A DNA stretch of 64,000 nucleotides from a candidate division WOR-3 bacterium (GTDB lineage Bacteria; Hydrothermota; Tepidihabitantia; B3-TA06): contig CBFGKC010000006.1 of assembly GCA_965649265.1 (NCBI GenBank), positions 114,975 through 178,974 on the forward strand, written 5' to 3'. Shown here piece by piece: positions 7,154 through 25,017 of the stretch. The position numbers and the translations under genes were made by a program. Within the stretch, counting starts at the first letter, position 1. The number at the start of each line of letters is the position of its first letter. The notes under the pieces were generated by a model. It was not told the origin of the DNA, ran no database searches, and worked only from the letters and a program-made list of their open reading frames with translations.

Positions 7154-7294
7154 AGACTGTGTTAAAGGGCTTTGTTCAGCCAGGCAAGGAAAATTCCCGC
7201 CCTTCATGATTTTTAAAAGTAACCCGCACGGTTGATGGTATAAATATCACCACTACTACCTCTGAACAATACCCTTACCTCCTTTCATAAACAA

Positions 7295-13157: not shown

Positions 13158-14459
13158 CTAGCTCGCGTAAGGGAACAGGAACTTTAGCGATGCGCCGAAG
13201 CGGTAGAACTTTTCGGTATACAAATCTTCCTCCAGCCCGAACTTCTTGGACCAGGTCGCGTACTCGAAGGAACTGTTGAGGACAACATACGAAGAGATAG
13301 GTATGCCTATCCCTGCGGTTACACCTTTGAGATACTTTGGTGTGTGCTGGCCTGAGTCGGCCTGCGGGATCGCGTCAAAGTAGAAACCTCCGCGTACTAT
13401 CACAGGCGATACGAATTCGGCACCGAAGCGGAACGTGGAACCGTCGTTCACGCCGAGCCTTGAGCCTAAGGCCTCGACGGCAGTGAAGAAGCGAGTCTGG
13501 AATTCACCTGAAAGATTGAGGAAAGGCAAAATCTTCGACCGCAAACCGACGGTGAAGACGCCGGGCAACATGTAGGCTGTTGAGTCATCTACCTGGTGTT
13601 TTATCTGAATTCCATTAGTGTCCAATACAAGCGTTGAATCAAACCAAGTAATCTCCGTTCCGGAAAGGCTTTCCTCGCCCCATCTCCAGCCCCAGGCTAT
13701 AGGTGATCGATATGAGAAGCTTATACCCAACTGGGGAAAGGGTTCCGCAAACGCGCCTACAGTGAAAAAATTTCCTGTCGAGGAGAAGTTACCTTTGTAT
13801 CTTATTCGTGTTTCATCGTATATACCGGAGGTGTCCCCGTCTTCAATCTCAAGATCATCGTAAACGCTTACTTCGTAATAGCTGCTTTTGAGCTTCTCTA
13901 GTGCGCTGAAGCTGAAGGCCAGACCAATGGAGTAATTGTCCAGTATGCTCATTGCGATCGCCGGGGTTATTACCCTTAAACCGCCGGTTGCGGTATCGGT
14001 CATCTTATAACTTCCGTTTTCGAATTCCCAGTTAATCTCCCTGTTGACGGCATTATCAATATGTAGGTGATAGCCGAAAGCAGGATAGAGCACAGCGTAT
14101 TCCGCGATCTGGATGGGCAAAGCTAAAGAGACGTGTGTGAACTGGGGGATGGTGTTATATTTTGTGTAGTATTGCTCTTCTTGTATCTCTTCCTGGCCGA
14201 AACCCCAGTAAAGCCTTCCGCCGATCTCCATTTCAAGATAATCAGCGTCCAGCAAAAGAGCAGGATTGAAAAAGATGGCGTTCGAACCCTGAGCGCTGAC
14301 CGATCCGGTATTGCCCATGCCGCAGGAACGGACATCCACGACGGTGGGATTAATTGCGTCAACCATAAATGCATAAACGGTTGAATTTACGAAAAATAGC
14401 GGTAACAATACGACCAAAGTCTTAAAGGTCGCTTTTTTTTCAAATCCTGACATGCACAT
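13158..14459 (-). CDS. Putative outer-membrane beta-barrel protein (PorV/FadL-like N-terminal motif)
   Basis: ATG 14459 after GGAGGT (track ORF extends to 14567). Signal-like FKTLVVLLPLFFVNSTVYA. The motif GMGNTGSVSAQGSNAIFFNPALLL resembles the G-x-G-G...NPA motif of PorV/PorQ/FadL-like barrels. Sequence shows alternating amphipathic pattern. Weak family call. Confidence 0.45.
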   Translation of the reverse strand: MCMSGFEKKATFKTLVVLLPLFFVNSTVYAFMVDAINPTVVDVRSCGMGNTGSVSAQGSNAIFFNPALLLDADYLEMEIGGRLYWGFGQEEIQEEQYYTKYNTIPQFTHVSLALPIQIAEYAVLYPAFGYHLHIDNAVNREINWEFENGSYKMTDTATGGLRVITPAIAMSILDNYSIGLAFSFSALEKLKSSYYEVSVYDDLEIEDGDTSGIYDETRIRYKGNFSSTGNFFTVGAFAEPFPQLGISFSYRSPIAWGWRWGEESLSGTEITWFDSTLVLDTNGIQIKHQVDDSTAYMLPGVFTVGLRSKILPFLNLSGEFQTRFFTAVEALGSRLGVNDGSTFRFGAEFVSPVIVRGGFYFDAIPQADSGQHTPKYLKGVTAGIGIPISSYVVLNSSFEYATWSKKFGLEEDLYTEKFYRFGASLKFLFPYAS

Positions 14460-14492
14460 ACCTACCTCCAGGCTTGCCTTTTTTGTATCTAT

Positions 14493-14521
14493 AGTGTATA
14501 CCGAAACATGTGATTTGTCAA
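14493..14521 (-). promoter_or_regulatory. sigma70-type promoter TTGACA-N17-TACACT (minus strand)
   Basis: TTGACA 14521-14516, TACACT 14498-14493, about 30 nt upstream of ATG 14459. Confidence 0.4.
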
Positions 14522-14671
14522 GCCCTTCTGTGAGCTTCTGGTCATCTAAGTCAAGCCAAAAAAACATCTGTAACCGTCAGCCCTCTCAGTCATATCCCGG
14601 CATTGGTCTTACAGACTGAGTTAATTGGAATAATATCCAAATCACAAGCAGAGAAAGATGTGTTACTGAGT

Positions 14672-15040: not shown

Positions 15041-15096
15041 GTGTTACGGGGGGGGGACGGGTGTTACGGGTGGGTGTTACGGGTGGCGTTACGGGG
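15041..15096 (-). repeat. C-rich decamer array (CCCGTAACAC on the gene strand), 4 copies, overlapping the rSAM stop codon
   Basis: Plus strand reads GTGTTACGGG at 15041, 15061 and 15074, and GCGTTACGGGG at 15087. Same motif arrays occur at 48002-48082 and 58790-58832. Confidence 0.8.
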
Positions 15097-16111
15097 CAGA
15101 GAGAATCTGGGCGACGAATGGTTCGGTACCACCGCATTCATTTGCGGCGGCCCGGCACGATGCCCGGCATGTCTCGATATCCTTGCACCCTCTGCACATC
15201 TCCGGTATATCCTCAATGAACTCCTTCCTTTCGGCGGAATCCATCAGCTCCCAGAAACTTTTTTCCCTGATATTCCCGAGAACGAGCGGGGTGTGGTTGC
15301 ACGGACGCAGATTGCCTATGGAATCCACCACCGGGTAGCACTCCTCGGTTCCCGCCGAGCAGAAACCGAAGCCGAGATGCGGGTAGTTCTTAATATCCAC
15401 GAGGCAGCAGGGGATAGGTATCGATACGCTTATGGGGAACCTCTTTTCTACCGCGAACCGCTCGGCTGTGTCGAGCATGAAGAGCACATCCTGGGGGGAG
15501 GGGGAGAGTTCGTCGAGATTCTCGAGTCCCCTTCCGCCGGGATTGAAGCGGTTGAGCATCACGCCGTGCGTACCGAGGCTCCTTGCGAACTCCAGGGTTT
15601 CCCAGAGCCTTGCGAGGTTGATCTTTGTGACGATCAGGGCGACTACAATCTTCGCCTTTGTCGAAAGCACGGCCTCTATCCCTCGAACTGATTTCTCGAA
15701 GCTTCCACTGCATCCCTGCAGGTATTCGTGCTCGTCTGGCCTGTCCGATAGAAGCTGGATCTCGAAAAGAGAGATTCCAGCCCTCACAAGCGTCTTTGCG
15801 AGTTTCTTGTCGAGCGCCTGGCCGTTCGTGATGATGTTGAGCTGAGCGCCCGAGAGTGCGGCCTGAAGCGAGATGTCCACGAGATCGGGTCTCAGAGTCG
15901 GTTCTCCGCCGCTTATCGTGAAGAGTGACGGCTTCGTCTCTTTTAAGAGCTTTGCCAGCATCTCGCGGGTTTCCTTTGGGTTCAAGTCCTCATGTACAGT
16001 TTCCGGATGCTTATGCCAGATGTTGTAGCAGAAGCGGCATTTGAGATTACATCTTTGGGTTACTTCGAAGATGAGGATTTTCTGGCGGCGGTCCCTTAAC
16101 GAATCGTTCAT
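15089..16111 (-). CDS. Radical SAM enzyme with C-terminal SPASM-type auxiliary cluster domain
   Basis: CNLKCRFC (CX3CX2C) at residues 21-28. GGEPTL SAM-binding-like motif. C-terminal FCSAGTEEC...GNLRPC...LGNI...CRGCKDIETCRASC cysteine pattern. The ATG lies 1 nt after the stop of paralog P1 (TAG-C-ATG). Confidence 0.85.
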   Translation of the reverse strand: MNDSLRDRRQKILIFEVTQRCNLKCRFCYNIWHKHPETVHEDLNPKETREMLAKLLKETKPSLFTISGGEPTLRPDLVDISLQAALSGAQLNIITNGQALDKKLAKTLVRAGISLFEIQLLSDRPDEHEYLQGCSGSFEKSVRGIEAVLSTKAKIVVALIVTKINLARLWETLEFARSLGTHGVMLNRFNPGGRGLENLDELSPSPQDVLFMLDTAERFAVEKRFPISVSIPIPCCLVDIKNYPHLGFGFCSAGTEECYPVVDSIGNLRPCNHTPLVLGNIREKSFWELMDSAERKEFIEDIPEMCRGCKDIETCRASCRAAANECGGTEPFVAQILSAP

Positions 16112-16112
16112 G

Positions 16113-16688
16113 CTAATTATCTTCCTTTTTCTCAGTTCCTGACGTATCCGGTTTGCTGACTATTAGTTTTGCCAGGTGAGAGGTTTCAGAATTAAGCGAG
16201 GATATTTTCATGAAGACCCTGACGGTTTCAGGCGGAAGGCCTCGAACATCCAGCCTCGCTTCCAGAAGTTCCGCGGAGCTGTCGAATTTCCCGTCGACCG
16301 GGTCGAGCGATATAATATAAGGTTCAGCATCCGGTCGGCTAACCGCGGCCGTAGCACTGTATATTATGTCACCAGGTATTTCTGTTCTTCCAAGAACCTT
16401 TATAGTTACGGAATCCGCACCCCTGGTCGGGTTGGGATAGATCAAAAGCGAGTCGACAATCTCATCTGCAGGCGGAGAAAAATGAACATAGTAGCAAGTA
16501 ATCGCCGGTTCATAGTGACGGTGTGTCAGACATCCTATGAGCGAAAGTAAGCCTCCTAGAAGAACCAGTTTAAAATGTCTGGTTGTTCTTGAAAATCGGT
16601 TCTTGCTCTCTAAAACCGAAAGAAGATGGAATACTAAACCTCCCGCTCGGCTCAACAACCCTGAGAGCCTATTACGCAACTTGATCAC
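16113..16688 (-). CDS. Array paralog P1 of 12 (numbered by coordinate): anchored Ig-like protein, unknown family, lipobox variant
   Basis: GTG start. MIKLRNRLSGLLSRAGGLVFHLLSVLE. Lipobox-like LIGC. ITCYY. YPNPTRGADSVTIKV. DGKFDSSAE. Acidic tail KPDTSGTEKKEDN. Confidence 0.8.
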   Translation of the reverse strand: MIKLRNRLSGLLSRAGGLVFHLLSVLESKNRFSRTTRHFKLVLLGGLLSLIGCLTHRHYEPAITCYYVHFSPPADEIVDSLLIYPNPTRGADSVTIKVLGRTEIPGDIIYSATAAVSRPDAEPYIISLDPVDGKFDSSAELLEARLDVRGLPPETVRVFMKISSLNSETSHLAKLIVSKPDTSGTEKKEDN

Positions 16689-16717
16689 TGGTCAATATAC
16701 GGCTGATAGGGATGGTG

Positions 16718-17278
16718 TCAATCCTTTTCTTCCGTAGAGTCAGGGTCCGTCACGACAAGCATTAGTTGTTGCGTATACATGCCTGCCTGGGAGGTGTAGA
16801 AGGTCAGGTCCACCCATGTTGTTTCGGAGACAAGCCCTCCGATATAGAACCTCCCCTGAACGGCCTCAAGCGTGTCCGAAAAATCTCCGTCAACCGCATC
16901 GAGAGGCGTAAGAAGCGTGTCTGATGCCAGTTTTATCGTCGCGCCGGTAATGATGTTGCCTTCTATTCCCGGATCGTAAACCTTGGCCGTCGCCTTCACC
17001 GTTACCGTATCCGCGCCTTTTGTAGGATTCGGCGTAATAGCAGCCTCGGTGACTACCACGGGGTCAATTATGGCCATGTCGTAGCAGGTTGCTATGGGTG
17101 TCTCCGGCTGTGCCCTGAGCCAGCCTGCAACAGTCAGAACGAGACCTAAAACGAAGAGCTTGGTCCACCTCGCCGTCTTTTTAATAGTTCCCTCCTCCTC
17201 CCAGCTTGAAAGAACCGGAAGGAGTTTTGCTCCTATCCTCGTTATGAATGATGAAAGCGCGTTTCGAGTCTTAATCAT
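16718..17278 (-). CDS. Array paralog P2
   Basis: MIKTRNALSSFITRIGAKLLPVLSSWEEEG. ARWTKL plus hydrophobic helix ending WLRAQ. ATCYD. TPNPTKGADTVTVKATAKV. DGDFSDTLE. Tail DPDSTEEKD. Confidence 0.8.
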   Translation of the reverse strand: MIKTRNALSSFITRIGAKLLPVLSSWEEEGTIKKTARWTKLFVLGLVLTVAGWLRAQPETPIATCYDMAIIDPVVVTEAAITPNPTKGADTVTVKATAKVYDPGIEGNIITGATIKLASDTLLTPLDAVDGDFSDTLEAVQGRFYIGGLVSETTWVDLTFYTSQAGMYTQQLMLVVTDPDSTEEKD

Positions 17279-17307
17279 GTTTTACTGTACCTCACTTTTC
17301 CGGACTG

Positions 17308-17865
17308 TCAATCTTTTTCTGTCGAATCGGGTTCAGAAATCACAAGCTGCAGCCCTTCAACATTTATGCCTGCCTGCGGGGTGTAGAATGTGATGTAAAC
17401 CCGGGTGGTTTCGGGTCCAAGCCCGGTGACGCACAGACGGCCTTCAACTGTCTCGAGCGTGTCCGAAAACTTGCCGTCGACCGCACGGAGAGGGACAATA
17501 ACCGTATCGCCGCCAATTCTTGCATCCGCTCCGGAGATTATATTGCCTTCAAGTTTCGAATCGTAGACCCTTGCGGTCGCTCTCACCGTAACCGAGTCGG
17601 CGCCATTTGTGGGGTTAGGCGTAATAGCAGCCTCAGTGATTATTACCGGTTCAATGACGACCGGATCATAACAGGTCGCATACCCCCTGGTCTCTTGGGC
17701 CGAGAGCCAGCCTAGTAAGCCCAGGATGAAACCCAGAATGTAGATTTTTGCAAATCTCGCGAATCCCTTAAGAACCCCTTCCTCCTCCCACCTTGAGAGA
17801 AGCGGGAAGAGTTTTGCTCCAACATTGCTTACAAACGCCGCGAGCGAGCTGCGAGCTTTGGCCAT
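17308..17865 (-). CDS. Array paralog P3
   Basis: AAGGAGG RBS. MAKARSSLAAFVSNVGAKLFPLLSRWEEEG. ATCYDP. TPNPTNGADSVTVRATARV. DGKFSDTLE. Tail EPDSTEKD. Confidence 0.85.
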   Translation of the reverse strand: MAKARSSLAAFVSNVGAKLFPLLSRWEEEGVLKGFARFAKIYILGFILGLLGWLSAQETRGYATCYDPVVIEPVIITEAAITPNPTNGADSVTVRATARVYDSKLEGNIISGADARIGGDTVIVPLRAVDGKFSDTLETVEGRLCVTGLGPETTRVYITFYTPQAGINVEGLQLVISEPDSTEKD

Positions 17866-17929
17866 AAAATTCCTCCTTGACTGCGACTACTCCTGTTATA
17901 CAGTTGCAGGTGCAATAAATTCCCTTAAC

Positions 17930-18469
17930 CTATTCGGTTATCTCGATATCTGAGCTGTCTTCGATTACCTTGTTCTTGCTTGTAGATATTCTGACATGGA
18001 CTTTTGCGTTTGCGGTATCGATACCCCTGATGCTTAACTTCGCCGAGATTTCCTCGTATGAACCGTCAAAAGCACTATCCGCAGCCAGCATCTCCACCGT
18101 GTCGGAATTTGCACCTTTCCCGGTAATGAAACACTGTGCCGATTTTACATAATTGTCCTTGGAGCCTGGGATTATATTGGCTCTGGCTTTGACCATAACC
18201 GAGTCGGCTCCAGCCGTAGGATCAGGCAAAACCTCGATATTATGAATGGGGGGAGGTACAGGCTCGTAGCACGTGACCGGGCAGCAGGCGGTCGAGCCGG
18301 CCGCTCCGGAAAGACCTAATCCTGAAACGAGTGCACTCAGGAATGAAAGCTTCATCCACCTTGCAAGCTTGGGTAGTACCCTGCGTTCCTCGCATCTTGA
18401 GTAGAAGTCAAAAAGCGCAAAACCGGCTTTCCTGAGAATCTCGAAAACAATGTGTCTTGCCTGAGCCAT
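17930..18469 (-). CDS. Array paralog P4
   Basis: The track ORF extends to 18547. ATG 18469 (MAQARHIVFEILRKAGFALFDFYSRCEERRVLP) aligns with the other N-termini and removes the overlap with P5. VTCYEP. LPDPTAGADSVMVKA. Confidence 0.8.
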   Translation of the reverse strand: MAQARHIVFEILRKAGFALFDFYSRCEERRVLPKLARWMKLSFLSALVSGLGLSGAAGSTACCPVTCYEPVPPPIHNIEVLPDPTAGADSVMVKARANIIPGSKDNYVKSAQCFITGKGANSDTVEMLAADSAFDGSYEEISAKLSIRGIDTANAKVHVRISTSKNKVIEDSSDIEITE

Positions 18470-18476
18470 GATACTG

Positions 18477-19016
18477 CTATTCTGATTCCGTGATGTACAA
18501 ATCCACTGTCGTGTAATCTCGCTCCCCTTTATTGGAGGTGGCCTCAATGTTTACACTGCAGGTATCGCCTGCGGCAAGATTGCCTACGTATAATCGAGCT
18601 TCTACGTCTTTCATTCCGTATGGATCGGTTTTCGTGACAATCATCGTTATGGTGTCGTCATTAAGAACACATATCACCTTATCCACATAATCTTCTTCTA
18701 TGCTTACTCCATTGGGGACATTTGCGCTCGCTTCAACGGTTACTGAATCTGAGCCTGACGTCGGATTAGGGGTTATTGAGCAGGTTGCGATTTGAGGTTT
18801 CGGGTACTCCATCGGTGCGTAACACGTTATGCAGTTGAGCATGCTGGCCGCACTCAATGCGGTAATTCCTGTCACGAAGGCTCCGAGGAAGGTCGTTTTT
18901 ACCCACCTGGAAGCCCTTGGCAGTATCCCGCAATCCTCACAGTGGGAGAAGAAGTTGAAGAGTGATGTTCCCATTCTCCTCAAGGTTTCAAAGAAGAGGT
19001 AGCGGCTACTGGCCAT
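18477..19016 (-). CDS. Array paralog P5
   Basis: GGAGG RBS. MASSRYLFFETLRRMGTSLFNFFSHCEDCGILPRASRWVKTTFLGAFVTGITALSAASM. ITCYAP. TPNPTSGSDSVTVEA. Confidence 0.85.
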   Translation of the reverse strand: MASSRYLFFETLRRMGTSLFNFFSHCEDCGILPRASRWVKTTFLGAFVTGITALSAASMLNCITCYAPMEYPKPQIATCSITPNPTSGSDSVTVEASANVPNGVSIEEDYVDKVICVLNDDTITMIVTKTDPYGMKDVEARLYVGNLAAGDTCSVNIEATSNKGERDYTTVDLYITESE

Positions 19017-19031
19017 TGTGCCTCCGGTGAT

Positions 19032-19547
19032 TTATTCAGTTATCTCGAGGTCGATTGTTGTATCCGCTCGCTGGTCTTCATTGTCGTATTCTGTGATTTG
19101 TATGGTTACTGTATCGGGCTCGAGGTCTCCTATATACAACTTCGCGTTCACGGCATATTCATTCGTGTAGTCTCCAGGCTCTATCTTCATGACGGTGGTG
19201 TCATTCTCGAGGATACATATCACCTTTTTCAATTCAATCCCGTTATCGGCAATTGCCTTGGCGGAAACGCTAACAGTGTCGGCCCCTGCCGTAGGATTTG
19301 GTGCCACGGAGGCGTTTTCGATTCGAGGTGATTCAATTGGCAAGTAGCAGCCGGTGGGGATACAGTTGATCATGCTGGCCGCGCTCAACGCGGTAATTCC
19401 TGTCACGAAGGCTCCGAGGAAGGTCGTTTTTACCCACCTGGAAGCCCTTGGCAGTACCCCGCATTCCTCACAGCGAGAGAAGAAGTTAAAGAGTGAGGTG
19501 CCTATCCTCCTCAAGGATTCAAAGAAAAAAAACTTTGTTCTAGCCAT
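19032..19547 (-). CDS. Array paralog P6
   Basis: ATG 19547 after AAAGGAGG (track ORF extends to 19580). MARTKFFFFESLRRIGTSLFNFFSRCEECGVLPRASRWVKTTFLGAFVTGITALSAASM. TGCYLP. APNPTAGADTVSVSA. Confidence 0.85.
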   Translation of the reverse strand: MARTKFFFFESLRRIGTSLFNFFSRCEECGVLPRASRWVKTTFLGAFVTGITALSAASMINCIPTGCYLPIESPRIENASVAPNPTAGADTVSVSAKAIADNGIELKKVICILENDTTVMKIEPGDYTNEYAVNAKLYIGDLEPDTVTIQITEYDNEDQRADTTIDLEITE

Positions 19548-19569
19548 GGTTCCTCCTTTCACTGTATTA

Positions 19570-19597
19570 AATATAATCAACTTGCTCGGATTGTCAA
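19570..19597 (-). promoter_or_regulatory. Internal sigma70-type promoter TTGACA-N16-TATATT inside the array (upstream of P6)
   Basis: TTGACA 19597-19592, TATATT 19575-19570, in the 82-nt P7-P6 gap. Confidence 0.45.
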
Positions 19598-19629
19598 TCC
19601 ATGAAAATCACCTGAAATCCTGGCAGGTG

Positions 19630-20157
19630 TTATTTATCAGTAACGCGGAGAACGGTCGAGCCTATGCCCCAGCCTGAGGTTTTTGAATCGACTTTTACAA
19701 AGACCTGAGTGCTGTCCGTTTTGATTTTCTTCACGTATATGCGCCCGATGAGTTCCTCATTATTCTCGTCGAATGCGCCGTCCCTCGCTATCATCCGGAT
19801 GGTGTCTCCATCGACTATGCACTGGGCTGAGGCTATTATTTCGAGATCGCTTGCGTTTTCAAGTCTGGCTTTGGCGGTAACGGTCACCGAGTCGGCGCCT
19901 TTCGTCGGGTTAGGCTTGACTACTATCTCCGAAACCCTGGGATATACGGCCACAGGTTCGTAGCAGGTCACGAGCCCCTGATCCAGCGGAGGTTTTTTGG
20001 CGCATGCCGCAATGATGGTCAGCCACGCTCCAGCAAGCGCGAGCTTGAGCCAGCGTGATATCCTTGGCAGAGCGCTTCGTTCCTCACACCCGGTCAGAAT
20101 GGAGAACAGTGCCGAGCCTGTTCTCCTCAAAAACCTTGACAGTAACTCTCGCTTCAT
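19630..20157 (-). CDS. Array paralog P7, lipobox variant
   Basis: MKRELLSRFLRRTGSALFSILTGCEERSALPRISRWLKL. Lipobox-like IAAC. VTCYEP. KPNPTKGADSVTVTA. ATGA overlap with the P8 stop. Confidence 0.8.
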   Translation of the reverse strand: MKRELLSRFLRRTGSALFSILTGCEERSALPRISRWLKLALAGAWLTIIAACAKKPPLDQGLVTCYEPVAVYPRVSEIVVKPNPTKGADSVTVTAKARLENASDLEIIASAQCIVDGDTIRMIARDGAFDENNEELIGRIYVKKIKTDSTQVFVKVDSKTSGWGIGSTVLRVTDK

Positions 20158-20726
20158 AACGAGTCCTTTTCAGTGATAAATAGCGGTAATGAAACCAGTG
20201 CTTCTTCACCCTTGGAAGTGGCCGCGTGCACGTAGACGAAGGTGGTCCCGGGTTTAAGACCCGCGACGCTGATGCGTGCCTCAATCATCTCGACGGTATC
20301 CGAGAAGCGGCCGTCCACAGGGTACATCCGGATTTTCCTTGACGTATCAATGGCCATTACGAGCCAAGCATCCGACACGTAATTGTTCTCAAGGCCAGGT
20401 TCCAGCACCCTTGCGGTGCCCGTTATCTTGACAGTGTGCACGCCCCTTGTCGGGTTCGGGCTTGCCTGAACTACTGAGATTTCGGGATCCATCCTTCTCA
20501 TCATGTAACATGTGTGGACAGGACCGTCGCCGTCTCCTCCTGGTCCGGGTCTTGCCTTTTTCCCGCACGAGGCTATCAGGGCGACAACGAGCCCGAGTAG
20601 CGAAACCTTCAAAAAGCGCGCGGTCTTTGAAAATATTGGAGTATCCTGGCATCTCGATAGCGCATTAAACACCAGATTACCTGCATTTCTGAGAACTGCA
20701 ATCAAGCTCTTTCTCATCTTTGCCAT
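20154..20726 (-). CDS. Array paralog P8, lipobox variant
   Basis: MAKMRKSLIAVLRNAGNLVFNALSRCQD. Lipobox-like IASC, then Gly/Pro/Asp linker. HTCYM. SPNPTRGVHTVKITG. DGRFSDTVE. Confidence 0.8.
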   Translation of the reverse strand: MAKMRKSLIAVLRNAGNLVFNALSRCQDTPIFSKTARFLKVSLLGLVVALIASCGKKARPGPGGDGDGPVHTCYMMRRMDPEISVVQASPNPTRGVHTVKITGTARVLEPGLENNYVSDAWLVMAIDTSRKIRMYPVDGRFSDTVEMIEARISVAGLKPGTTFVYVHAATSKGEEALVSLPLFITEKDSL

Positions 20727-20745
20727 TCTGCCTCTCCTATCTCGT

Positions 20746-21288
20746 TTAATCTGGTTCAGTAATCACCAGTTCTAAAGATTCAATTTCAATTTGACCGGAA
20801 GAATTTTCTACCTCTAAGTATATCCATGTCGTTTCCGGCTCAAGGTCTCCAACGTAAAGTCGGCCGACTATTCTCTCCGAAGCGGCGTCGAATTTCCCGT
20901 CAATCGCCCGCATGGGGTAATATATTGTATCTCCATCCATTCTCATGCGGGCTGAGCTTATCGTGCTTTCGCCGCTGTAGTGATCGCTAATCTTTGCCGT
21001 GGCCTTGACGGTTACCGAATCGGCGCCCCTTGTAGGGTTAGGCCTTACGGAAAGTTTGGATAGTTCTATGAGGGGAGGGGGGGCGGGCTTGTAGCACATT
21101 ATGACGTCTTCCTTTGCTTCGAGCGAGAGAGCGCTCACGAGTGCCACGAAAAATCCGAGGAATGTGAGCTTCAACCATCTTGCCGCCCCGGGGAGGATGC
21201 GGCGTTCCTCGAATCCGGAAAACGTTCCGAAAAGCCTTCCGCCAATCCTTGCAAAAAAGTCTGCCAGGCGTTTTCTGAGTTCAGGCAT
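20746..21288 (-). CDS. Array paralog P9
   Basis: AAGGAGGA RBS embedded in the P10 tail codons. MPELRKRLADFFARIGGRLFGTFSGFEERRILPGAARWLKL. IMCYKP. RPNPTRGADSVTVKATAKI. DGKFDAASE. Confidence 0.85.
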   Translation of the reverse strand: MPELRKRLADFFARIGGRLFGTFSGFEERRILPGAARWLKLTFLGFFVALVSALSLEAKEDVIMCYKPAPPPLIELSKLSVRPNPTRGADSVTVKATAKISDHYSGESTISSARMRMDGDTIYYPMRAIDGKFDAASERIVGRLYVGDLEPETTWIYLEVENSSGQIEIESLELVITEPD

Positions 21289-21289
21289 A

Positions 21290-21859
21290 TCAATCCTCCT
21301 TATTCTCGTTGCTGTCCGCTTCCGGTGCGGTGATGATTAATTGCCTCCAGGTGCTTTCCGCGTTGCCTGAGTTTGTCCTCACCACTATGTAAATCCAGGT
21401 GGTCTCCGGCTTGTGATCCCCGACGTAGAGACGGCCTTCGACTGTTTCAAGGGTATCGCCGAACTTACCGTCAACCGCTTTCATCGGATATAAAAGGGTA
21501 TCTCCGGTAAGCTGCATAATTGCTTCGGAAACAGCGGTGTCACCTGAGCAATAATATGCAGATTCCAATTTTGCGGTTGCCTTGACTGTAACGGTGTCTT
21601 TTCCTGCAGTGGGGTTCGGTGTTGCCGAGACATCGAAGATACTTAAGTGAGGTTCCTCAATAGGCACGTAGCACATGATGATATCGTCGTCCGCCTTGAG
21701 CGCTGGCGCGCCCAGCAGGGTTACCAGCAATCCCAGAACCGAAAGCTTTAGCCATCTTGCCGGTCTGCGTAGGATACCGCGTTCCTCCAATCCGGACAGT
21801 ATCCCGAATAAGGAGCCGCCTATCCGTGAAGAGATGCGGGCCAGTAAGCCTTTTGTCAT
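21290..21859 (-). CDS. Array paralog P10
   Basis: The ATG directly follows the P11 stop (TAGATG). MTKGLLARISSRIGGSLFGILSGLEERGILRRPARWLKL. IMCYVP. TPNPTAGKDTVTVKATAKL. DGKFGDTLE. Tail EADSNENKED. Confidence 0.85.
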   Translation of the reverse strand: MTKGLLARISSRIGGSLFGILSGLEERGILRRPARWLKLSVLGLLVTLLGAPALKADDDIIMCYVPIEEPHLSIFDVSATPNPTAGKDTVTVKATAKLESAYYCSGDTAVSEAIMQLTGDTLLYPMKAVDGKFGDTLETVEGRLYVGDHKPETTWIYIVVRTNSGNAESTWRQLIITAPEADSNENKED

Positions 21860-22435
21860 CTACTCCTCCCTGGCAGCGCTCGAATCAGCTGCGAGCGAAT
21901 CAATCCTTGTTACGGTGTAGGACTGCCAAAGAATCTCTTCATCTTCTCTGGAACTCGTCACGTCTATAAAGAACCAGTGGGTGCCGGTATCCAGGTCGCC
22001 TGTGTAAAACATGGCCTCAAGAACCTCAAGAGTGTCGTTAAGCTTGCCGTCCACGGCCTTCATGGGAATCCTCAGGGTGTCACGCTGCCTGGAAAGCCAG
22101 GCGTTTCGGATGTAATTGTTCTCAAGGGTCGGGTCCAGAACTTTTGCAGTTACCTTTACTTTTACCGAGTCCGCTCCTCGAGTCGGATTTGGTGTGATGG
22201 ACACATCCGAAATCTTTACCTCCGGCATCCTCATGGCTACGTAACAGGTCTTAATTGTTTCTACCTCGGCGGAAAGTGCTCCGATGGCTGCGGTAAGAAA
22301 TCCAAGCAGTGAGAGCTTTAACCAGCGCGAAGCGCTGGGCACAATCCCGCGCTCTTCGAATCGCGACAGGAGTGAAAAGAGACCTCCTCCCAGCACTTCA
22401 AGAATCCTTACGACGAACCCTTTCGTTCTCGCCAC
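21860..22435 (-). CDS. Array paralog P11
   Basis: The track ORF extends to 22654. GTG 22435 (AAAGGTGGAG RBS, 1 nt after the P12 stop) gives MARTKGFVVRILEVLGGGLFSLLSRFEERGIVPSASRWLKL, matching the family. KTCYV. TPNPTRGADSVKVKV. Confidence 0.75.
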   Translation of the reverse strand: MARTKGFVVRILEVLGGGLFSLLSRFEERGIVPSASRWLKLSLLGFLTAAIGALSAEVETIKTCYVAMRMPEVKISDVSITPNPTRGADSVKVKVTAKVLDPTLENNYIRNAWLSRQRDTLRIPMKAVDGKLNDTLEVLEAMFYTGDLDTGTHWFFIDVTSSREDEEILWQSYTVTRIDSLAADSSAAREE

Positions 22436-22436
22436 G

Positions 22437-23009
22437 TCACTCCACCTTTGTCGAATCAGTCCTGATAGAATCAGGCTCCGAGACTTCAAAATAAAACCAG
22501 CTCGCTTCCAGTGCATCCTGGGATGTCTGGACGAGCATTGAGATCGAGTACTGGCCCGGTTCAAGATTTCCAACGTAAACCGTACCCTCGAGCACCTCGA
22601 GCGTGTCGTCCATCTTGCCGTCAAGTGCTTTGACCTTGAACCTCGTCGTATCACCGTCCCAGGAGAGCCAGGCGTCCTTTATGAAGTTATCCTTGATATT
22701 CGAGTACATCACCTTGGCCTGGGCCTTCACTTTCACCGAATCCGCTCCCTTCGTGGTATCAGGGGTTACGGACTTCTCTGTTATGATGACGTCGGGAATC
22801 CTCGCGACGATGTAGCAGGTGACTTCCGGATCCCTGGCTTGAAGTGAGAGTGTCGCGACTAGCGAGGCTATGATTCCCAGGGTCGAGATCTTTATCCATC
22901 TCGCGGCACGCGGCATGACGCCTTTTTCTTCTATCATTGTCAGAAAATGGAAAATTGCATCTCCCAGTTTCCCTAACAGCCTGGATAAGAGGTTGCGTGT
23001 CTTGGCCAT
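22437..23009 (-). CDS. Array paralog P12 (first gene of the operon)
   Basis: ATG 23009 after AAAGGAG (track ORF extends to 23087). MAKTRNLLSRLLGKLGDAIFHFLTMIEEKGVMPRAARWIKI. VTCYI. TPDTTKGADSVKVKA. DGKMDDTLE. Confidence 0.8.
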   Translation of the reverse strand: MAKTRNLLSRLLGKLGDAIFHFLTMIEEKGVMPRAARWIKISTLGIIASLVATLSLQARDPEVTCYIVARIPDVIITEKSVTPDTTKGADSVKVKAQAKVMYSNIKDNFIKDAWLSWDGDTTRFKVKALDGKMDDTLEVLEGTVYVGNLEPGQYSISMLVQTSQDALEASWFYFEVSEPDSIRTDSTKVE

Positions 23010-23058
23010 CGTCGCTCCTTTAATTCTCAATACAAGAAAACATCTCAAATATTCCCCA

Positions 23059-23086
23059 CAATATAAGCCCCAAAAGACAGGTGTCA
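23059..23086 (-). promoter_or_regulatory. sigma70-type promoter TTGACA-N16-TATATT driving the paralog array
   Basis: Reverse complement reads TTGACA (23086-23081), cctgtcttttggggct, TATATT (23064-23059). About 45 nt upstream of ATG 23009. Confidence 0.55.
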
Positions 23087-23111
23087 AGCATATCTTACGG
23101 GCGGATACTCA

Positions 23112-23140
23112 TTGACAAAGATGCAGCATTTCTCTATAAT
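23112..23140 (+). promoter_or_regulatory. Perfect-consensus sigma70 promoter TTGACA-N17-TATAAT, divergent from the array promoter
   Basis: TTGACA 23112-23117, 17-nt spacer, TATAAT 23135-23140. Confidence 0.6.
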
Positions 23141-23224: not shown

Positions 23225-24547
23225 ATGCATCCATTTCTGGTTTTCTGTTGTTGTTTGATTTCATCTTTGACTTGGAATAGACATTATGATTTTCGGTTTA
23301 GTGACCACTGTAGCGCGCTTGTGCCGGTAGAGGACGGTTACGTGATTACGGGTAACACTATGCGGTATCTATTCGTGCAGAAGGTCGATACTCTGGGAAA
23401 TCAAGTCGGTTACAAAGAGTGGTATAAGGCCGAAGGTTATGACATAGAGAGAATGTCTGATGGTTATATTATTCTTGCGTACAAAGACGAATCTCCCAGG
23501 CACGGGATTTGGTTGGTAAGAACAGATAGCGATTTTGACACACTTTGGAGTAGAAGCTATGGATATAATAATGGAATTATGGCAAAATCTCACTCATTTG
23601 ATTTAACAGATGACAGTGGTTTAGTGATGGTCGGTGAGTGCGGCACGGGTCTTATTGTCTTTAAAACCGATAGTCTTGGTGATAGCTCCTGGGTAAAAAA
23701 ATATTTTCAGTCTGTCTCGATGCGCGCTGGGAATTTTATTGAAGAAACATCTGATCAAGGTTTTATTGTTACGGGAGTTTGTGAGGAACGTTTTTTTGCA
23801 CTGAAATTGGATGAGAATGGGGATTCCTTATGGTGTAAGAAATATTTTGAGGAAAAAACAGGTGAAGGTCTTTGTATAAGAGAAACCTCCGACAAAGGCT
23901 TTATAGTATTGGCTAGGATAAGGTATGGTAGTTCGGATTCCTTGCTTCTCATCAAGACGGATTCTTTTGGAAACGCTTTGTGGGTGAGAAAATTCAATTC
24001 GATGTCTCATTGGACTAGAACATGTTATATTGAGGTTCTGGATGATGGTTATGTTATGATTTCAGGGTCACAAGAAGGTCCATTAGTCAGGAAATTTGAC
24101 GAGTCTGGGAATGTCCTTTGGACAAAGACCTACAATCGTAATTTCGGTTATTTTTCCGGATTTGAAGGCACATGTATTCATTACACATCGGATAAAGGTT
24201 TTATTATTGGCACCGCTTTGGATATATCTCCATACGGATCAGACCTCTGGCTGGTGAAAACCGACAGCCTAGGAAACACGGTTCCTCTTGAATCCGTGAT
24301 AGAGCCAACGGAGACTGCCGTTAGCGAAGTTCATCTGAGTGTTTTGAATTCAGCTGTTGCATATTCCTTACCTGCTGGCGAGCGTTGTTTGTTGAAAATC
24401 TATGATGTTAGTGGAGTATTGAAAAAAGGAGAAATTGTTTGTGGCCGCGGAGAGATGCGACTAAAAGAATTCCCTGTAGGGGTTTATTTCGCTGAGTTAC
24501 AGTTCATGCGAAGTGCTGAAATCAAAAAGGTATTAGTTTTTCCCTAG
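23225..24547 (+). CDS. Secreted repeat protein (same ~50-aa repeat family as 2652 and 11732) with T9SS-type C-terminal domain
   Basis: Repeats such as IEETSDQGFIVTG...LKLDENGDSLW and IRETSDKGFIVLA...LLIKTDSFGNALW. C-terminus LLKIYDVSGVL...GVYFAELQFMRSAEIKKVLVFP. Confidence 0.7.
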   Translation: MHPFLVFCCCLISSLTWNRHYDFRFSDHCSALVPVEDGYVITGNTMRYLFVQKVDTLGNQVGYKEWYKAEGYDIERMSDGYIILAYKDESPRHGIWLVRTDSDFDTLWSRSYGYNNGIMAKSHSFDLTDDSGLVMVGECGTGLIVFKTDSLGDSSWVKKYFQSVSMRAGNFIEETSDQGFIVTGVCEERFFALKLDENGDSLWCKKYFEEKTGEGLCIRETSDKGFIVLARIRYGSSDSLLLIKTDSFGNALWVRKFNSMSHWTRTCYIEVLDDGYVMISGSQEGPLVRKFDESGNVLWTKTYNRNFGYFSGFEGTCIHYTSDKGFIIGTALDISPYGSDLWLVKTDSLGNTVPLESVIEPTETAVSEVHLSVLNSAVAYSLPAGERCLLKIYDVSGVLKKGEIVCGRGEMRLKEFPVGVYFAELQFMRSAEIKKVLVFP

Positions 24548-24576: not shown

Positions 24577-25017
24577 TTGTTCAAGTACAATCCCCGCGTG
24601 AAGCAGCTCTTATCGGACTGGCGGGTGCTTTCGGCGATCGCGATACTCGGATGGGGGACCTGGGGCATACTCTCAAAGATTGCCCTGAAACAGGTTGACT
24701 GGCGGGTCATGATGCTGATTACGTCCGTAGCCGCCCTTCCTCTGGCTTTCATACTCGGGATTCCGAATTTCGACTGGAAGTTTAACCGCTACATCCTTCT
24801 CGCTTTTTTTGCAGGAATCGGAGCCGAGGTCGCGACGCTCTCCTTCAACCGCGCGATTCAAAAGGGCGGACCCGCGAACGTCGTGGTCCCACTCACCTCA
24901 CAGTACGTGCTCGTCATAGTGCTTTTTTCGACCATTTTCCTAAAAGAGCCTATAACGTGGCAGAGAATCGTCGGCATCGTTGCCGCGCTCATAGCAATTG
25001 TGATGCTTTCGCTGTGA
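24577..25017 (+). CDS. Small DMT/EamA-like membrane transporter (single EamA-type domain)
   Basis: 146 aa with 4-5 hydrophobic helices. FFAGIGAEVATLSFNRAIQKGGPANVVVPLTSQYVLVIVLFSTIFLKEPITWQRIVG resembles an EamA domain. TTG start, or the downstream GTG. Confidence 0.55.
   Translation: MFKYNPRVKQLLSDWRVLSAIAILGWGTWGILSKIALKQVDWRVMMLITSVAALPLAFILGIPNFDWKFNRYILLAFFAGIGAEVATLSFNRAIQKGGPANVVVPLTSQYVLVIVLFSTIFLKEPITWQRIVGIVAALIAIVMLSL

What the first reader, a model, noticed from the sequence alone, without database searches (positions are those of the whole stretch)
15089..23086. Operon of 12 tandem paralogous signal-anchored proteins ending in a radical SAM/SPASM enzyme
Seen: 12 co-directional minus-strand ORFs (16113-23009) separated by -4 to 82 nt. 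Several junctions are 0-1 nt or ATGA overlaps, and most ORFs have GGAGG-type RBS. The last ORF ends TAG-C-ATG into a 340-aa ORF with CX3CX2C at residues 21-28 and a C-terminal SPASM-like Cys cluster. All 12 share one architecture: a conserved ~30-aa N-terminal segment, a basic ARW-K motif plus hydrophobic helix, an invariant Cys-Tyr, a PNPT-x-GADSV-x-V block, a DG-x-F-x-D-x-E block, G-R-L-Y-V-G, and an acidic tail. The rest of the ~115-aa ectodomain diverges strongly. The operon has its own TTGACA-N16-TATATT promoter and an internal one at 19570-19597. Established: SPASM rSAM enzymes act on peptide or protein substrates before export (anSME on sulfatases, QhpD on QhpC, RiPP maturases) and are usually encoded next to their substrates. 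Inference: this is a multi-substrate protein-modification cassette, or a diversified surface-protein family that needs an rSAM-installed modification. I do not recognise the paralog family.
Basis: partly seen in the sequence, partly recalled or inferred. Interest (0 to 1): 0.9.

Follow-up and report, generated by a model that had tools for sequence, protein, structure and literature searches.

The report
Radical SAM enzyme with twelve Cys-Tyr substrates
Twelve tandem genes for membrane-anchored, Ig-like proteins sit directly in front of a radical SAM/SPASM enzyme whose relatives in many phyla are always paired with a protein carrying the same short Thr-Cys-Tyr-x-Pro motif, which points to an undescribed protein modification whose target site can now be tested.

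Summary
Twelve co-directional paralogs (16113-23009, minus strand; gaps -4 to 82 nt) run straight into a 340-aa radical SAM/SPASM gene (15089-16111).

Each paralog has an N-terminal helix, a transmembrane helix, a short linker with an invariant Cys-Tyr, and a seven-strand Ig-like sandwich. Neither the paralogs nor the enzyme match a curated Pfam or NCBIfam family.

The full-length family is small (about 45 clusters at 50% identity) and restricted to WOR-3/TA06/Stahlbacteria-like genomes. It occurs in 1 to 12 copies. Wherever downstream DNA is available, the rSAM follows the last copy.

The key result concerns the enzyme's relatives at 39-44% identity in Chloroflexota, Planctomycetota, Myxococcota and others. 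Each is preceded by an unrelated, mostly exported or membrane-anchored helical protein. Of 71 such proteins, 68 carry one to four Cys-Tyr sites in the context [T]-C-Y-x-[P/M], against 8% of control ORFs.

The enzyme therefore most likely modifies the juxtamembrane Cys-Tyr of all twelve paralogs before export, in the way anSME acts on sulfatases. The chemistry is unknown; a Cys/Tyr crosslink or Cys oxidation are the leading candidates.

I rate this a new variant of a known kind.

The parts
22437..23009 (-). Paralog P1 (190 aa); Cys65-Tyr66 at nt 22812-22817
   Evidence: family HMM E=9e-74
21860..22435 (-). Paralog P2 (191 aa, GTG start); Cys-Tyr at nt 22241-22246
21290..21859 (-). Paralog P3 (189 aa); Cys-Tyr at nt 21668-21673
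20746..21288 (-). Paralog P4 (180 aa), the copy modelled with AF2. The model shows helix 2-28, TM helix 33-58, a low-confidence linker carrying Cys65-Tyr66 (nt 21091-21096), and a seven-strand beta-sandwich at residues 74-176.
   Evidence: (mean pLDDT 87.7)
20154..20726 (-). Paralog P5 (190 aa); lipobox-like LIASC at the end of the helix; Cys-Tyr at nt 20505-20510
19630..20157 (-). Paralog P6 (175 aa; ATGA overlap with P5); Cys-Tyr at nt 19960-19965
19032..19547 (-). Paralog P7 (171 aa); together with P8, the copy closest to the single-copy genes of other genomes; Cys-Tyr at nt 19344-19349
18477..19016 (-). Paralog P8 (179 aa); Cys-Tyr at nt 18819-18824
17930..18469 (-). Paralog P9 (179 aa); Cys-Tyr at nt 18266-18271
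17308..17865 (-). Paralog P10 (185 aa); Cys-Tyr at nt 17668-17673
16718..17278 (-). Paralog P11 (186 aa); Cys-Tyr at nt 17081-17086
16113..16688 (-). Paralog P12 (191 aa, GTG start, no RBS); the most divergent copy, with no ortholog in L001; Cys-Tyr at nt 16491-16496
15089..16111 (-). Radical SAM/SPASM enzyme (340 aa). It has the CX3CX2C motif at C21/C25/C28 and eight conserved auxiliary-cluster Cys (C236, C251, C271, C306, C309, C315, C319, C326). It has no N-terminal RRE/PqqD domain.
23060..23087 (-). Promoter-like site TTGACA-N16-TATATT upstream of P1
   Evidence: conserved at the orthologous position in L001. This is a consensus match only.
19570..19597 (-). Internal promoter-like site TTGACA-N16-TATATT in the 82-nt gap before P7
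   Evidence: conserved before the orthologous paralog in L001 (5442-5469)
24577..25017 (+). Small EamA-family membrane protein (146 aa). It is a conserved, divergently transcribed neighbour of the paralog/rSAM unit in this lineage. Whether it takes part in the function is unknown.
   Evidence: Pfam EamA E=1.6e-14. It is present upstream at 67-82% identity in all 8 related loci that have upstream DNA.

Best explanation
The region is a one-enzyme, many-substrate protein maturation cassette. Each of the 12 paralogs is a bitopic envelope protein with four parts: a cytoplasmic N-terminal helix, a basic R-W-x-K motif plus one transmembrane helix, a short unstructured linker carrying an invariant [T]-Cys-Tyr-x-[P] site, and one Ig-like beta-sandwich on the outer face of the cytoplasmic membrane.

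The last gene of the operon is 1 nt from P12 and so probably translationally coupled. It encodes a cytoplasmic radical SAM/SPASM enzyme with no peptide-recognition (RRE) domain. I infer that this enzyme recognises the local Cys-Tyr motif in the not-yet-exported, unfolded linker. It would then use a 5'-deoxyadenosyl radical and two auxiliary Fe-S clusters to modify the Cys/Tyr pair, after which the protein is inserted or exported. This is the same logic as anSME acting on sulfatases before export.

The chemistry is not known. I consider an oxidative Cys-centred reaction most likely, either a thioether or other crosslink involving the neighbouring Tyr, or oxidation of the Cys side chain.

Shown here: the architecture, the strict gene linkage, and the clade-wide pairing of the enzyme with Cys-Tyr motif proteins. 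Inferred: that Cys-Tyr is the site, that modification precedes export, and the type of reaction.
For: **Linkage within the lineage.** The rSAM follows the last or only paralog in the window, L001-L003 (9 copies), L004, L009 and L011 (1 copy each), L010 (at least 11 copies), L012, L097-L100 (1 copy) and L094. The array order is collinear between the window and L001, where the rSAM is 90% identical.

**Pairing across phyla.** In 68 of 71 distinct loci, rSAM homologs at 39-44% identity (Planctomycetota, Chloroflexota, Myxococcota, Armatimonadota and others) have an upstream, usually overlapping ORF with at least one Cys-Tyr. The density is 5.0 per 1000 aa, against 0.33 per 1000 aa in 981 control ORFs. 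The context is T(-1) 73%, P(+3) 66%, M(+3) 14%. Within the pattern T-x-x-x-P, the dipeptide CY occurs 65 times and the next most frequent dipeptide 3 times. These partner proteins share no detectable homology with the window family.

**Conservation of the site.** Cys-Tyr is present in 81 of 82 family members. The linker that holds it is the most conserved segment between orthologs, at 87% identity against 73% for the sandwich.

**Partners are exported.** 29 of 68 have twin-arginine N-termini, with TIGR01409 scoring above its cut-off for L020. Most of the rest have a strong N-terminal hydrophobic helix. This fits maturation in the cytoplasm before export.

**Enzyme type.** The enzyme has Radical_SAM plus SPASM domains. 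Its nearest solved relatives are all peptide- or protein-modifying enzymes: PqqE (profile E = 9e-24), SkfB, anSME and SuiB. CX3CX2C begins at residue 21, so there is no RRE, as in anSME.
Against: - No experiment or mass data exist; the target residue and the reaction are inferred.
- The Cys-Tyr lies on the trans side of the TM helix, so the model needs modification before membrane insertion.
- The conserved N-terminal cytoplasmic helix is left without a role and could itself be the contact or the site.
- A related shorter subfamily keeps the Cys-Tyr yet forms arrays with no rSAM on contigs of up to 11.4 kb (L106, L090, L092).
- Three of the 71 outgroup loci lack a Cys-Tyr partner. Two are probably mis-called ORFs and one is an NrfA-like cytochrome.
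- The anSME catalytic Asp277 is replaced by invariant Asn272-His273, so anSME chemistry cannot simply be assumed.
Confidence: 0.7

Rival explanations
1. The rSAM is a cofactor or housekeeping enzyme (AhbD/NirJ/PqqE-like tetrapyrrole or quinone biosynthesis) that is merely syntenic with a surface-protein array and does not act on it.
For: The best NCBIfam hits are AhbD (112 bits), GeoRSP (102) and NirJ2 (99). PqqE is the best PDB profile hit. Synteny with EamA and YjeF is also conserved between close relatives.
Against: All of those scores are far below the family cut-offs of 381-500 bits. No PqqA/PqqD or heme genes are adjacent. The enzyme keeps a Cys-Tyr motif partner directly upstream across phyla while the rest of the neighbourhood changes completely.
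Confidence: 0.05
2. The paralogs are RiPP-like precursors. The conserved N-terminal part acts as a leader, and a small modified peptide around Cys-Tyr is cut out and released. The Ig-like domain would be a carrier or have a separate role.
For: There are multiple tandem precursor-like genes before one rSAM maturase. The N-terminal segment is conserved. The nearest structural relatives, SkfB and SuiB, are RiPP maturases.
Against: The substrates are 171-191 aa and contain a confidently folded domain (pLDDT about 95). No protease, transporter or RRE gene is conserved with the pair. Between orthologs the whole protein is conserved, not only a core peptide. Outgroup partners are 170-800 aa helical proteins with internal sites.
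Confidence: 0.08
3. The Cys-Tyr site is an anchoring or attachment point. The rSAM would link the juxtamembrane Cys to a lipid or another envelope component (a thioether to an unactivated carbon), giving a lipoprotein-like anchor after the signal helix is removed.
For: In the window family, and at the first site of many Chloroflexota partners, the Cys-Tyr lies 5-10 residues after the signal or TM helix. Three paralogs (P5, P6, P12) also have a lipobox-like Cys. rSAM enzymes acting on lipids are among the weaker PDB hits (GDGT-MAS 7tol).
Against: Most outgroup sites are internal, between helices and far from the N-terminus, with up to four per protein. No lipid-handling gene is conserved nearby. 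This is speculation with no direct support.
Confidence: 0.07
4. The paralog array is a set of surface or adhesion proteins that diversified for antigenic or ligand variety. The rSAM link would then be secondary to that biology, for example a stabilising modification only.
For: The ectodomain is a widespread Ig-like repeat found in giant multi-repeat surface proteins. Copy number varies from 1 to 12 between lineages, and L010 expanded independently.
Against: The array is not evolving quickly. Order and one-to-one orthology are kept between two species, with 55-85% identity per ortholog. This reading also does not conflict with the main explanation; it concerns what the mature proteins do.
Confidence: 0.1

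Closest known systems
Anaerobic sulfatase-maturating enzyme (anSME/AtsB; PDB 4K36-4K39)
   Same: It is an RRE-less radical SAM/SPASM enzyme of similar size. It acts on a Cys within a short linear motif of full-length proteins that carry export signals, and does so before export. The pattern of eight auxiliary Cys fits two fully ligated clusters. It is the best single-sequence PDB hit (E = 8e-10) and a structural neighbour (TM 0.69).
   Different: Identity is only about 20%. The substrate motif is T-C-Y-x-P, not C/S-x-P-x-R. The substrates are not sulfatases. The catalytic Asp277 is replaced by invariant Asn-His. The product is unknown.
PqqE (with PqqA/PqqD) and MftC (mycofactocin maturase)
   Same: Both are SPASM enzymes that work on a Tyr in a ribosomal substrate. 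PqqE is the best profile hit in the PDB (E = 9e-24, full length). MftC is the top NCBIfam hit for one outgroup member. From general knowledge, MftC acts on two adjacent residues, Val-Tyr.
   Different: Scores are far below the family cut-offs (82 against 381 bits; 76-91 against 265 bits). There is no PqqD/RRE partner and no small-peptide substrate. The site is internal, not C-terminal.
Sactipeptide and ranthipeptide synthases (SkfB, CteB, PapB, AlbA)
   Same: They are SPASM/twitch rSAM enzymes that make thioethers from a substrate Cys. SkfB is the top structural match (Foldseek E = 3e-14).
   Different: Those enzymes carry an N-terminal RRE and act on short leader-core peptides. From general knowledge, CteB leaves one auxiliary-cluster site open for the substrate Cys, whereas this clade conserves eight auxiliary Cys (inference).
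QhpD/QhpC (quinohemoprotein amine dehydrogenase maturation)
   Same: From general knowledge, a SPASM rSAM installs Cys thioether crosslinks in a protein subunit encoded next to it, in the cytoplasm and before export to the periplasm.
   Different: I made no sequence comparison with QhpD. QhpC is a small Cys-rich subunit of an enzyme, not a TM-anchored Ig-like protein, and it has no Cys-Tyr motif.
Bufferins (MNIO-modified, signal-peptide-bearing precursors; PMC12452194)
   Same: These are exported precursors with Cys modifications, encoded next to their maturase and widespread across phyla (abstract seen).
   Different: The enzyme superfamily is different (MNIO/DUF692, not radical SAM), as are the motifs. 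Their role is copper chelation.

Membership tests
Radical SAM superfamily (PF04055) | CX3CX2C cluster-binding motif and partial TIM-barrel core | tested here: met
   C21/C25/C28 are invariant. Pfam Radical_SAM scores 74.5 bits against a cut-off of 29.5. The AF2 model shows a beta/alpha core.
SPASM subgroup (PF13186) | C-terminal seven-Cys motif CX9-15GX4C...CX2CX5CX3C...C for two auxiliary Fe-S clusters | tested here: met
   C251-X14-G266-X4-C271; C306-X2-C309-X5-C315-X3-C319; C326; plus C236. Pfam SPASM scores 30.6 bits against a cut-off of 21.5.
anSME (anaerobic sulfatase maturase) | Substrate motif C/S-x-P/A-x-R in a sulfatase; catalytic Asp next to the third auxiliary Cys | tested here: not met
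   The partner motif is T-C-Y-x-P. The partners have no sulfatase domain. Asn272-His273 replace Asp277 in the alignment. No anSME model appears among the 25 best NCBIfam hits shown.
AhbD / NirJ (heme b and heme d1 rSAM enzymes) | Score above the NCBIfam equivalog cut-off; tetrapyrrole gene context | tested here: not met
   TIGR04545 scores 111.8 against 500, TIGR04055 99 against 500, and TIGR04051 84.8 against 515. No heme biosynthesis genes are adjacent.
PqqE | Score above the TIGR02109 cut-off; adjacent PqqA peptide and PqqD | tested here: not met
   81.7 bits against 381. No pqq genes occur in any of the loci examined.
GeoRSP system rSAM (TIGR04303) | Score above the cut-off of 400; companion PqqD-family and SPASM proteins | tested here: not met
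   101.6 bits against 400. The companion proteins are absent.
RiPP precursor/maturase system | Short leader-core peptide, RRE-mediated recognition, leader protease and/or exporter | tested here: not met
   The substrates are 171-191 aa with a folded domain. The enzyme has no room for an RRE before residue 21. No protease or ABC exporter is conserved nearby.
Bacterial lipoproteins (Lgt/Lsp lipobox) | [LVI][ASTVI][GAS]C at the end of the signal peptide in all members | tested here: not met
   Only P5 (IASC), P6 (IAAC) and P12 (LIGC) resemble a lipobox. The invariant Cys is the one in Cys-Tyr, which lies 5-20 residues further on.
Known Ig-like domain families (Y_Y_Y PF07495, Big_13 PF19077, FlgD_ig) | Pfam match at the gathering threshold | tested here: not met
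   The paralogs give no Pfam hit at E <= 0.1. Giant proteins sharing the domain show weak Y_Y_Y or sub-threshold Big_13 signals elsewhere in the chain. Foldseek returns only generic sandwiches (TM about 0.4).
The Cys-Tyr partner/rSAM pairing defined here | A gene directly upstream of a member of this rSAM clade that encodes a protein with [T]-C-Y-x-[P/M] | tested here: met
   All 12 paralogs carry the Cys-Tyr. The rSAM is 39-44% identical over its full length to the outgroup enzymes. 68 of 71 outgroup partners carry the motif.

The most novel reading that the evidence does not exclude
This SPASM clade installs a previously undescribed post-translational modification at T-C-Y-x-P sites of full-length exported or membrane-anchored proteins. 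An intramolecular Cys-Tyr crosslink or a Cys-derived functional group are examples. It would be a phylum-spanning protein maturation pathway comparable in logic to formylglycine generation. In a WOR-3/TA06-like lineage the pathway has been recruited to a new TM-anchored Ig-like family that expanded to 12 substrates per enzyme.
Probability: 0.5. Interest if true: 0.85.

Novelty: new variant of a known kind. Interest (0 to 1): 0.72.

Why it matters
Radical SAM/SPASM enzymes that modify whole proteins rather than small peptides are few; anSME and QhpD are the main examples. Here a whole clade is tied to a precise four-residue target motif in otherwise unrelated envelope proteins. Members were confirmed in 183 stretches of the genome contigs species-representative collection and in at least 558 protein clusters.

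That turns 'hypothetical rSAM next to hypothetical proteins' into a direct experiment: one enzyme, one peptide, one mass shift. It may uncover new Cys/Tyr chemistry made without oxygen.

The window is the most extreme case seen, with 12 substrates for one enzyme. The lineage is uncultured, and almost nothing is known of its envelope biology.

Tried and rejected
- **Curated families.** Pfam and NCBIfam scans of the paralogs gave no hit at E <= 0.1. Scans of the outgroup partners gave only a Tat-signal model and noise.
- **Fold of the paralog.** Foldseek of the paralog model against the PDB returned only generic Ig-like sandwiches (PmoB, NPC2, the sulfite oxidase domain, RbmA, SoxZ; TM about 0.4). 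It gave no functional lead. The afdb50 library was unavailable.
- **Shared N-terminal anchor.** I tested whether the window family's N-terminal anchor (R-W-x-K plus TM) is homologous to the planctomycete-type partner N-terminus (TM1-RTGPRWKRRL-TM2). hhalign gave a probability of 2%, so I rejected homology and treat it as only a short resemblance.
- **Downstream 469-aa gene.** I tested whether the gene at 13158-14567 belongs to the unit. It is conserved only in L001 (55% identity) and not in L004, L010 or L011, so it is not core.
- **Other substrates in the window.** None is convincing. A T-C-Y at residue 267 of the 440-aa neighbour lies in a repeat context and is probably chance.
- **RNA genes.** Rfam and tRNA scans of the window found nothing.
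- **Literature.** Six full-text searches for an rSAM acting on Cys-Tyr, or for this pairing, found nothing relevant. The one review I read mentions only oxygen-dependent Tyr-Cys crosslinks. This is weak negative evidence, because subscription journals are not covered.
- **dN/dS.** I did not attempt it; orthologs at 55-85% identity are likely saturated at synonymous sites.

Full report
**1. The observation**

The ORF list and a junction check confirm 12 co-directional minus-strand genes between 16113 and 23009. Gaps between them are 1, 0, 1, 19, -4, 82, 15, 7, 64, 29 and 29 nt. The last paralog ends TAG-C-ATG into a 340-aa ORF at 15089-16111. Most starts are preceded by GGAG(G); P2 and P12 start with GTG.

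The 12 products align over their whole length at 20-57% pairwise identity. The invariant residues, in P1 numbering, are G16, R37, K40, C65, Y66, P83, T86, G88, V92 and D130. Each matches the family HMM at E = 1e-57 to 1e-74, and nothing else in the window matches.

The 340-aa protein has CX3CX2C at C21/C25/C28 and a complete SPASM cysteine pattern: C251-X14-G-X4-C271, C306-X2-C-X5-C-X3-C319, C326, plus C236. It hits Pfam Radical_SAM and SPASM.

They recur at the orthologous positions in a second species, which gives them some weight. A third identical site lies just before P12.

One detail does not hold. Among the 12 copies the N-terminal segment is not clearly better conserved than the ectodomain; mean identity is 36% against 33%.

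**2. What the paralogs are**

An AlphaFold2 model of P4, built on a 46-sequence family alignment, has mean pLDDT 87.7. It shows:
- an N-terminal helix (residues 2-28);
- a second, hydrophobic helix (33-58) preceded by the basic R-W-x-K motif;
- a low-confidence linker (59-73) that holds the invariant Cys-Tyr;
- a seven-strand beta-sandwich (74-176) with pLDDT about 95.

By the positive-inside rule, the N-terminus should be cytoplasmic and the sandwich outside. This topology is an inference.

Foldseek finds only generic Ig-like sandwiches, and there are no Pfam or NCBIfam hits.

An exhaustive HMM search of 1.84 billion representative proteins found three groups:
- About 45 full-length family members.
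- A second, shorter subfamily with the same layout: a basic N-terminus, LLPRGL, a TM helix, T-C-Y, PNPTGGA and DGxFDSDSE.
- More than 100 giant multi-repeat proteins that match only the sandwich region.

So the ectodomain is a widespread, uncurated Ig-like repeat. What defines the family is the N-terminal anchor plus the Cys-Tyr linker. The word-indexed search of 5.8 billion clusters gave 43 members, all from 'bacterium', WOR-3 or TA06 metagenome-assembled genomes.

**3. Linkage to the rSAM within the lineage**

| Locus | Source | Paralog copies | rSAM position |
|---|---|---|---|
| window | this sequence | 12 | 1 nt after P12 |
| L001 | GCA_012517375 | 9 | directly after the last copy; 90% identical to the window enzyme |
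| L010 | WOR-3 | at least 11 | directly after the last copy |
| L004 | TA06 | 1 | directly after it |
| L009 | Stahlbacteria | 1 (contig cut upstream) | directly after it |
| L011 | WOR-3 | 1 | directly after it |
| L097-L100 | metagenomes | 1 each | directly after it |
| L012 | WOR-3 | at least 2 | directly after the last copy |
| L094 | metagenome | 5 | rSAM N-terminus at the contig end |

No full-length family locus with downstream DNA lacks the enzyme.

The window and L001 arrays are collinear, with one-to-one orthologs at 55-85% identity. The window has extra duplications (P1/P2, P10/P11) and an extra P12. L010 expanded independently. The single-copy genes are closest to P7/P8. The array is therefore old and maintained, not a fast-changing contingency locus.

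Between orthologs, the linker with Cys-Tyr is the best-conserved segment (87% identity).

A small EamA-family gene is divergently upstream in all eight related loci that have upstream DNA. The downstream 469-aa gene is not conserved beyond L001.

**4. The decisive comparison: the enzyme's relatives elsewhere**

The rSAM has a tight ingroup at 66% identity or more, then a very large set at 39-44% identity over the full length. That set comes from Chloroflexota/Anaerolineae, Planctomycetota, Myxococcota, Armatimonadota, Gammaproteobacteria and others. In a scan of one genome per species, 183 stretches encoded a relative, and 80 loci were fetched.

In these loci the gene just upstream usually overlaps the rSAM start by 4-20 nt. 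It encodes proteins of 170-800 aa that have no detectable homology to the window family and no Pfam or NCBIfam family. They are mostly helical by inspection of the sequences.

Of 71 distinct upstream ORFs, 68 contain Cys-Tyr, with one to four sites each (5.0 per 1000 aa). Among 981 other long ORFs in the same loci, 83 (8%) contain it (0.33 per 1000 aa). The context is conserved:
- Thr at -1 in 73%.
- Pro at +3 in 66%, or Met in 14%.
- Examples are 'APMTCYEPMIVDYAP', 'PPTDxxVTCYDMxxxPPA' and 'PPTCYAPVLITPTP'.

Within the pattern T-x-x-x-P, the dipeptide CY occurs 65 times and the next most frequent dipeptide 3 times.

The window paralogs read TCYEPV, TCYDPV, TCYAPM, MCYKPA, TCYDMAIIDP and so on.

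Of the 68 partners, 29 have twin-arginine N-termini. Most of the others have a strong N-terminal hydrophobic helix.

The simplest reading is that this SPASM clade recognises a short Cys-Tyr motif. The window's family is then one lineage-specific class of substrate.

**5. How it most likely works**

The enzyme has no room for an RRE/PqqD domain, because the cluster motif starts at residue 21. It has eight conserved auxiliary cysteines, enough to ligate two clusters fully (inference).

Its nearest solved relatives all modify peptides or proteins:
- PqqE by profile (E = 9e-24).
- anSME by single sequence (E = 8e-10).
- SkfB, SuiB and anSME by structure (TM 0.68-0.72).

The best functional analogy is anSME: a cytoplasmic, RRE-less SPASM enzyme acting on a Cys in a short motif of unfolded, signal-bearing proteins before export.

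It is not an anSME, for three reasons. The motif differs. The partners are not sulfatases. The catalytic Asp277 aligns with an invariant Asn-His.

Both Cys and Tyr are invariant, and the closest characterised enzymes act on Tyr (PqqE, MftC) or on Cys (anSME, sactisynthases). I therefore favour an oxidative reaction on the Cys/Tyr pair, either a crosslink or Cys oxidation. This step is inference only.

What the mature proteins do is unknown. Twelve distinct Ig-like modules tethered to the membrane suggest binding or scaffolding roles in the envelope.

**6. Rivals and caveats**

- *Purely syntenic cofactor enzyme.* This is unlikely. AhbD, NirJ and PqqE models score 82-112 bits against cut-offs of 381-500. 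Only the Cys-Tyr partner stays constant while the rest of the neighbourhood changes.
- *RiPP-style released peptide.* This fits poorly with folded substrates of 171-191 aa and with the absence of a conserved protease or exporter.
- *Lipid or envelope attachment at the juxtamembrane Cys.* This is not excluded for the window family. However, most outgroup sites are internal.
- *The short subfamily.* It keeps the Cys-Tyr but forms arrays with no rSAM on contigs of up to 11.4 kb (L106, L090, L092). One locus, L110, shows a short-subfamily gene followed 1 nt later by an rSAM of this clade. In that lineage the enzyme may be unlinked, which I could not test.

**7. Novelty**

Pfam (2025) and NCBIfam (June 2026) have no model for the paralogs, for the outgroup partners, or for this rSAM clade. 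Six full-text literature searches found no description.

The principle, a SPASM maturase next to its substrates, is known. The following appear to be new: the clade, its T-C-Y-x-P motif, its use on full-length exported proteins in many phyla, and the 12-substrate array of a new TM-anchored Ig-like family. I therefore rate it a new variant of a known kind, with interest 0.72.

Noticed in passing
window 23112-23140 (+): A perfect sigma-70-type consensus (TTGACA-17-TATAAT, 12 of 12) sits back to back with the operon's promoter-like site. It points towards the 440-aa ORF at 23225-24547 and the EamA gene. L001 has a similar divergent pair (2486-2458 on the minus strand and 2496-2523 on the plus strand).
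   Followed up: partly
window 24577-25017 (+); L001, L004, L009, L011, L097-L100: A small single-domain EamA-family membrane protein (139-146 aa) is divergently upstream of the paralog/rSAM unit in all eight related loci that have upstream DNA (67-82% identity). It is better conserved than the paralogs. Its role is unknown. From general knowledge, DMT/EamA-family proteins include SAM transporters.
   Followed up: partly
window 16694-16721 (-): A third TTGACA-N16-TATATT site ends only 5 nt before the GTG start of P12, which has no RBS. It could be chance, or P12 could be expressed from a leaderless transcript.
   Followed up: no
window 11732-13069 (-), 23225-24547 (+), 4886-7207 (-): The operon is flanked by secreted, repeat-rich proteins with repeated 'D(G/E)GY-I-x-G' units that look like a beta-propeller. 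They have C-terminal tails resembling type IX secretion sorting domains; FlgD_ig and Por_Secre_tail hits were found for 4886-7207. L004 has a similar protein downstream of its rSAM.
   Followed up: partly
window 13158-14567 (-): A 469-aa protein with no Pfam hit has an outer-membrane-protein-like C-terminus (…KFLFPYAS). Its ortholog in L001 is 55% identical, but it is absent next to the rSAM in L004, L010 and L011.
   Followed up: partly
L090 909-1823; L106 6979-7929 and 7967-8791: The short-subfamily arrays are interleaved with a second unannotated paralog family of 273-316 aa. Its conserved blocks are 'SVSEWGV-D', 'APV-YFYG' and 'CDYIFYEAE'.
   Followed up: no
L015, L016, L017, L022, L025 and others (planctomycete-type partners), N-terminal ~70 aa: Seventeen outgroup partners share a conserved N-terminal hairpin: 'MPYRA…', TM1, 'RTGPRWKRRL', TM2. 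The basic W-K motif resembles the window family's 'ARW-K', but a profile comparison gave no support for homology (probability 2%).
   Followed up: yes
L023 5462-5995, L024 5418-5984: The Myxococcota and Gammaproteobacteria partners carry two or three T-C-Y sites, spaced about 25 residues apart, in a Pro/Thr-rich linker ('PPTCYAPVLITPTPK'). They look like tandem modification sites on an extended stalk.
   Followed up: no
L106 3725-4261: One of six short-subfamily paralogs has the dipeptide inverted ('PMYCRAV') instead of Cys-Tyr. P0187 in the main family has 'TYY'. These are the only deviations seen.
   Followed up: no
window 23225-24547 (+), residue 267: The divergent 440-aa neighbour contains 'WTRTCYIEV'. 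The T-C-Y lies in a repeat context without the +3 Pro, so it is probably coincidental.
   Followed up: no
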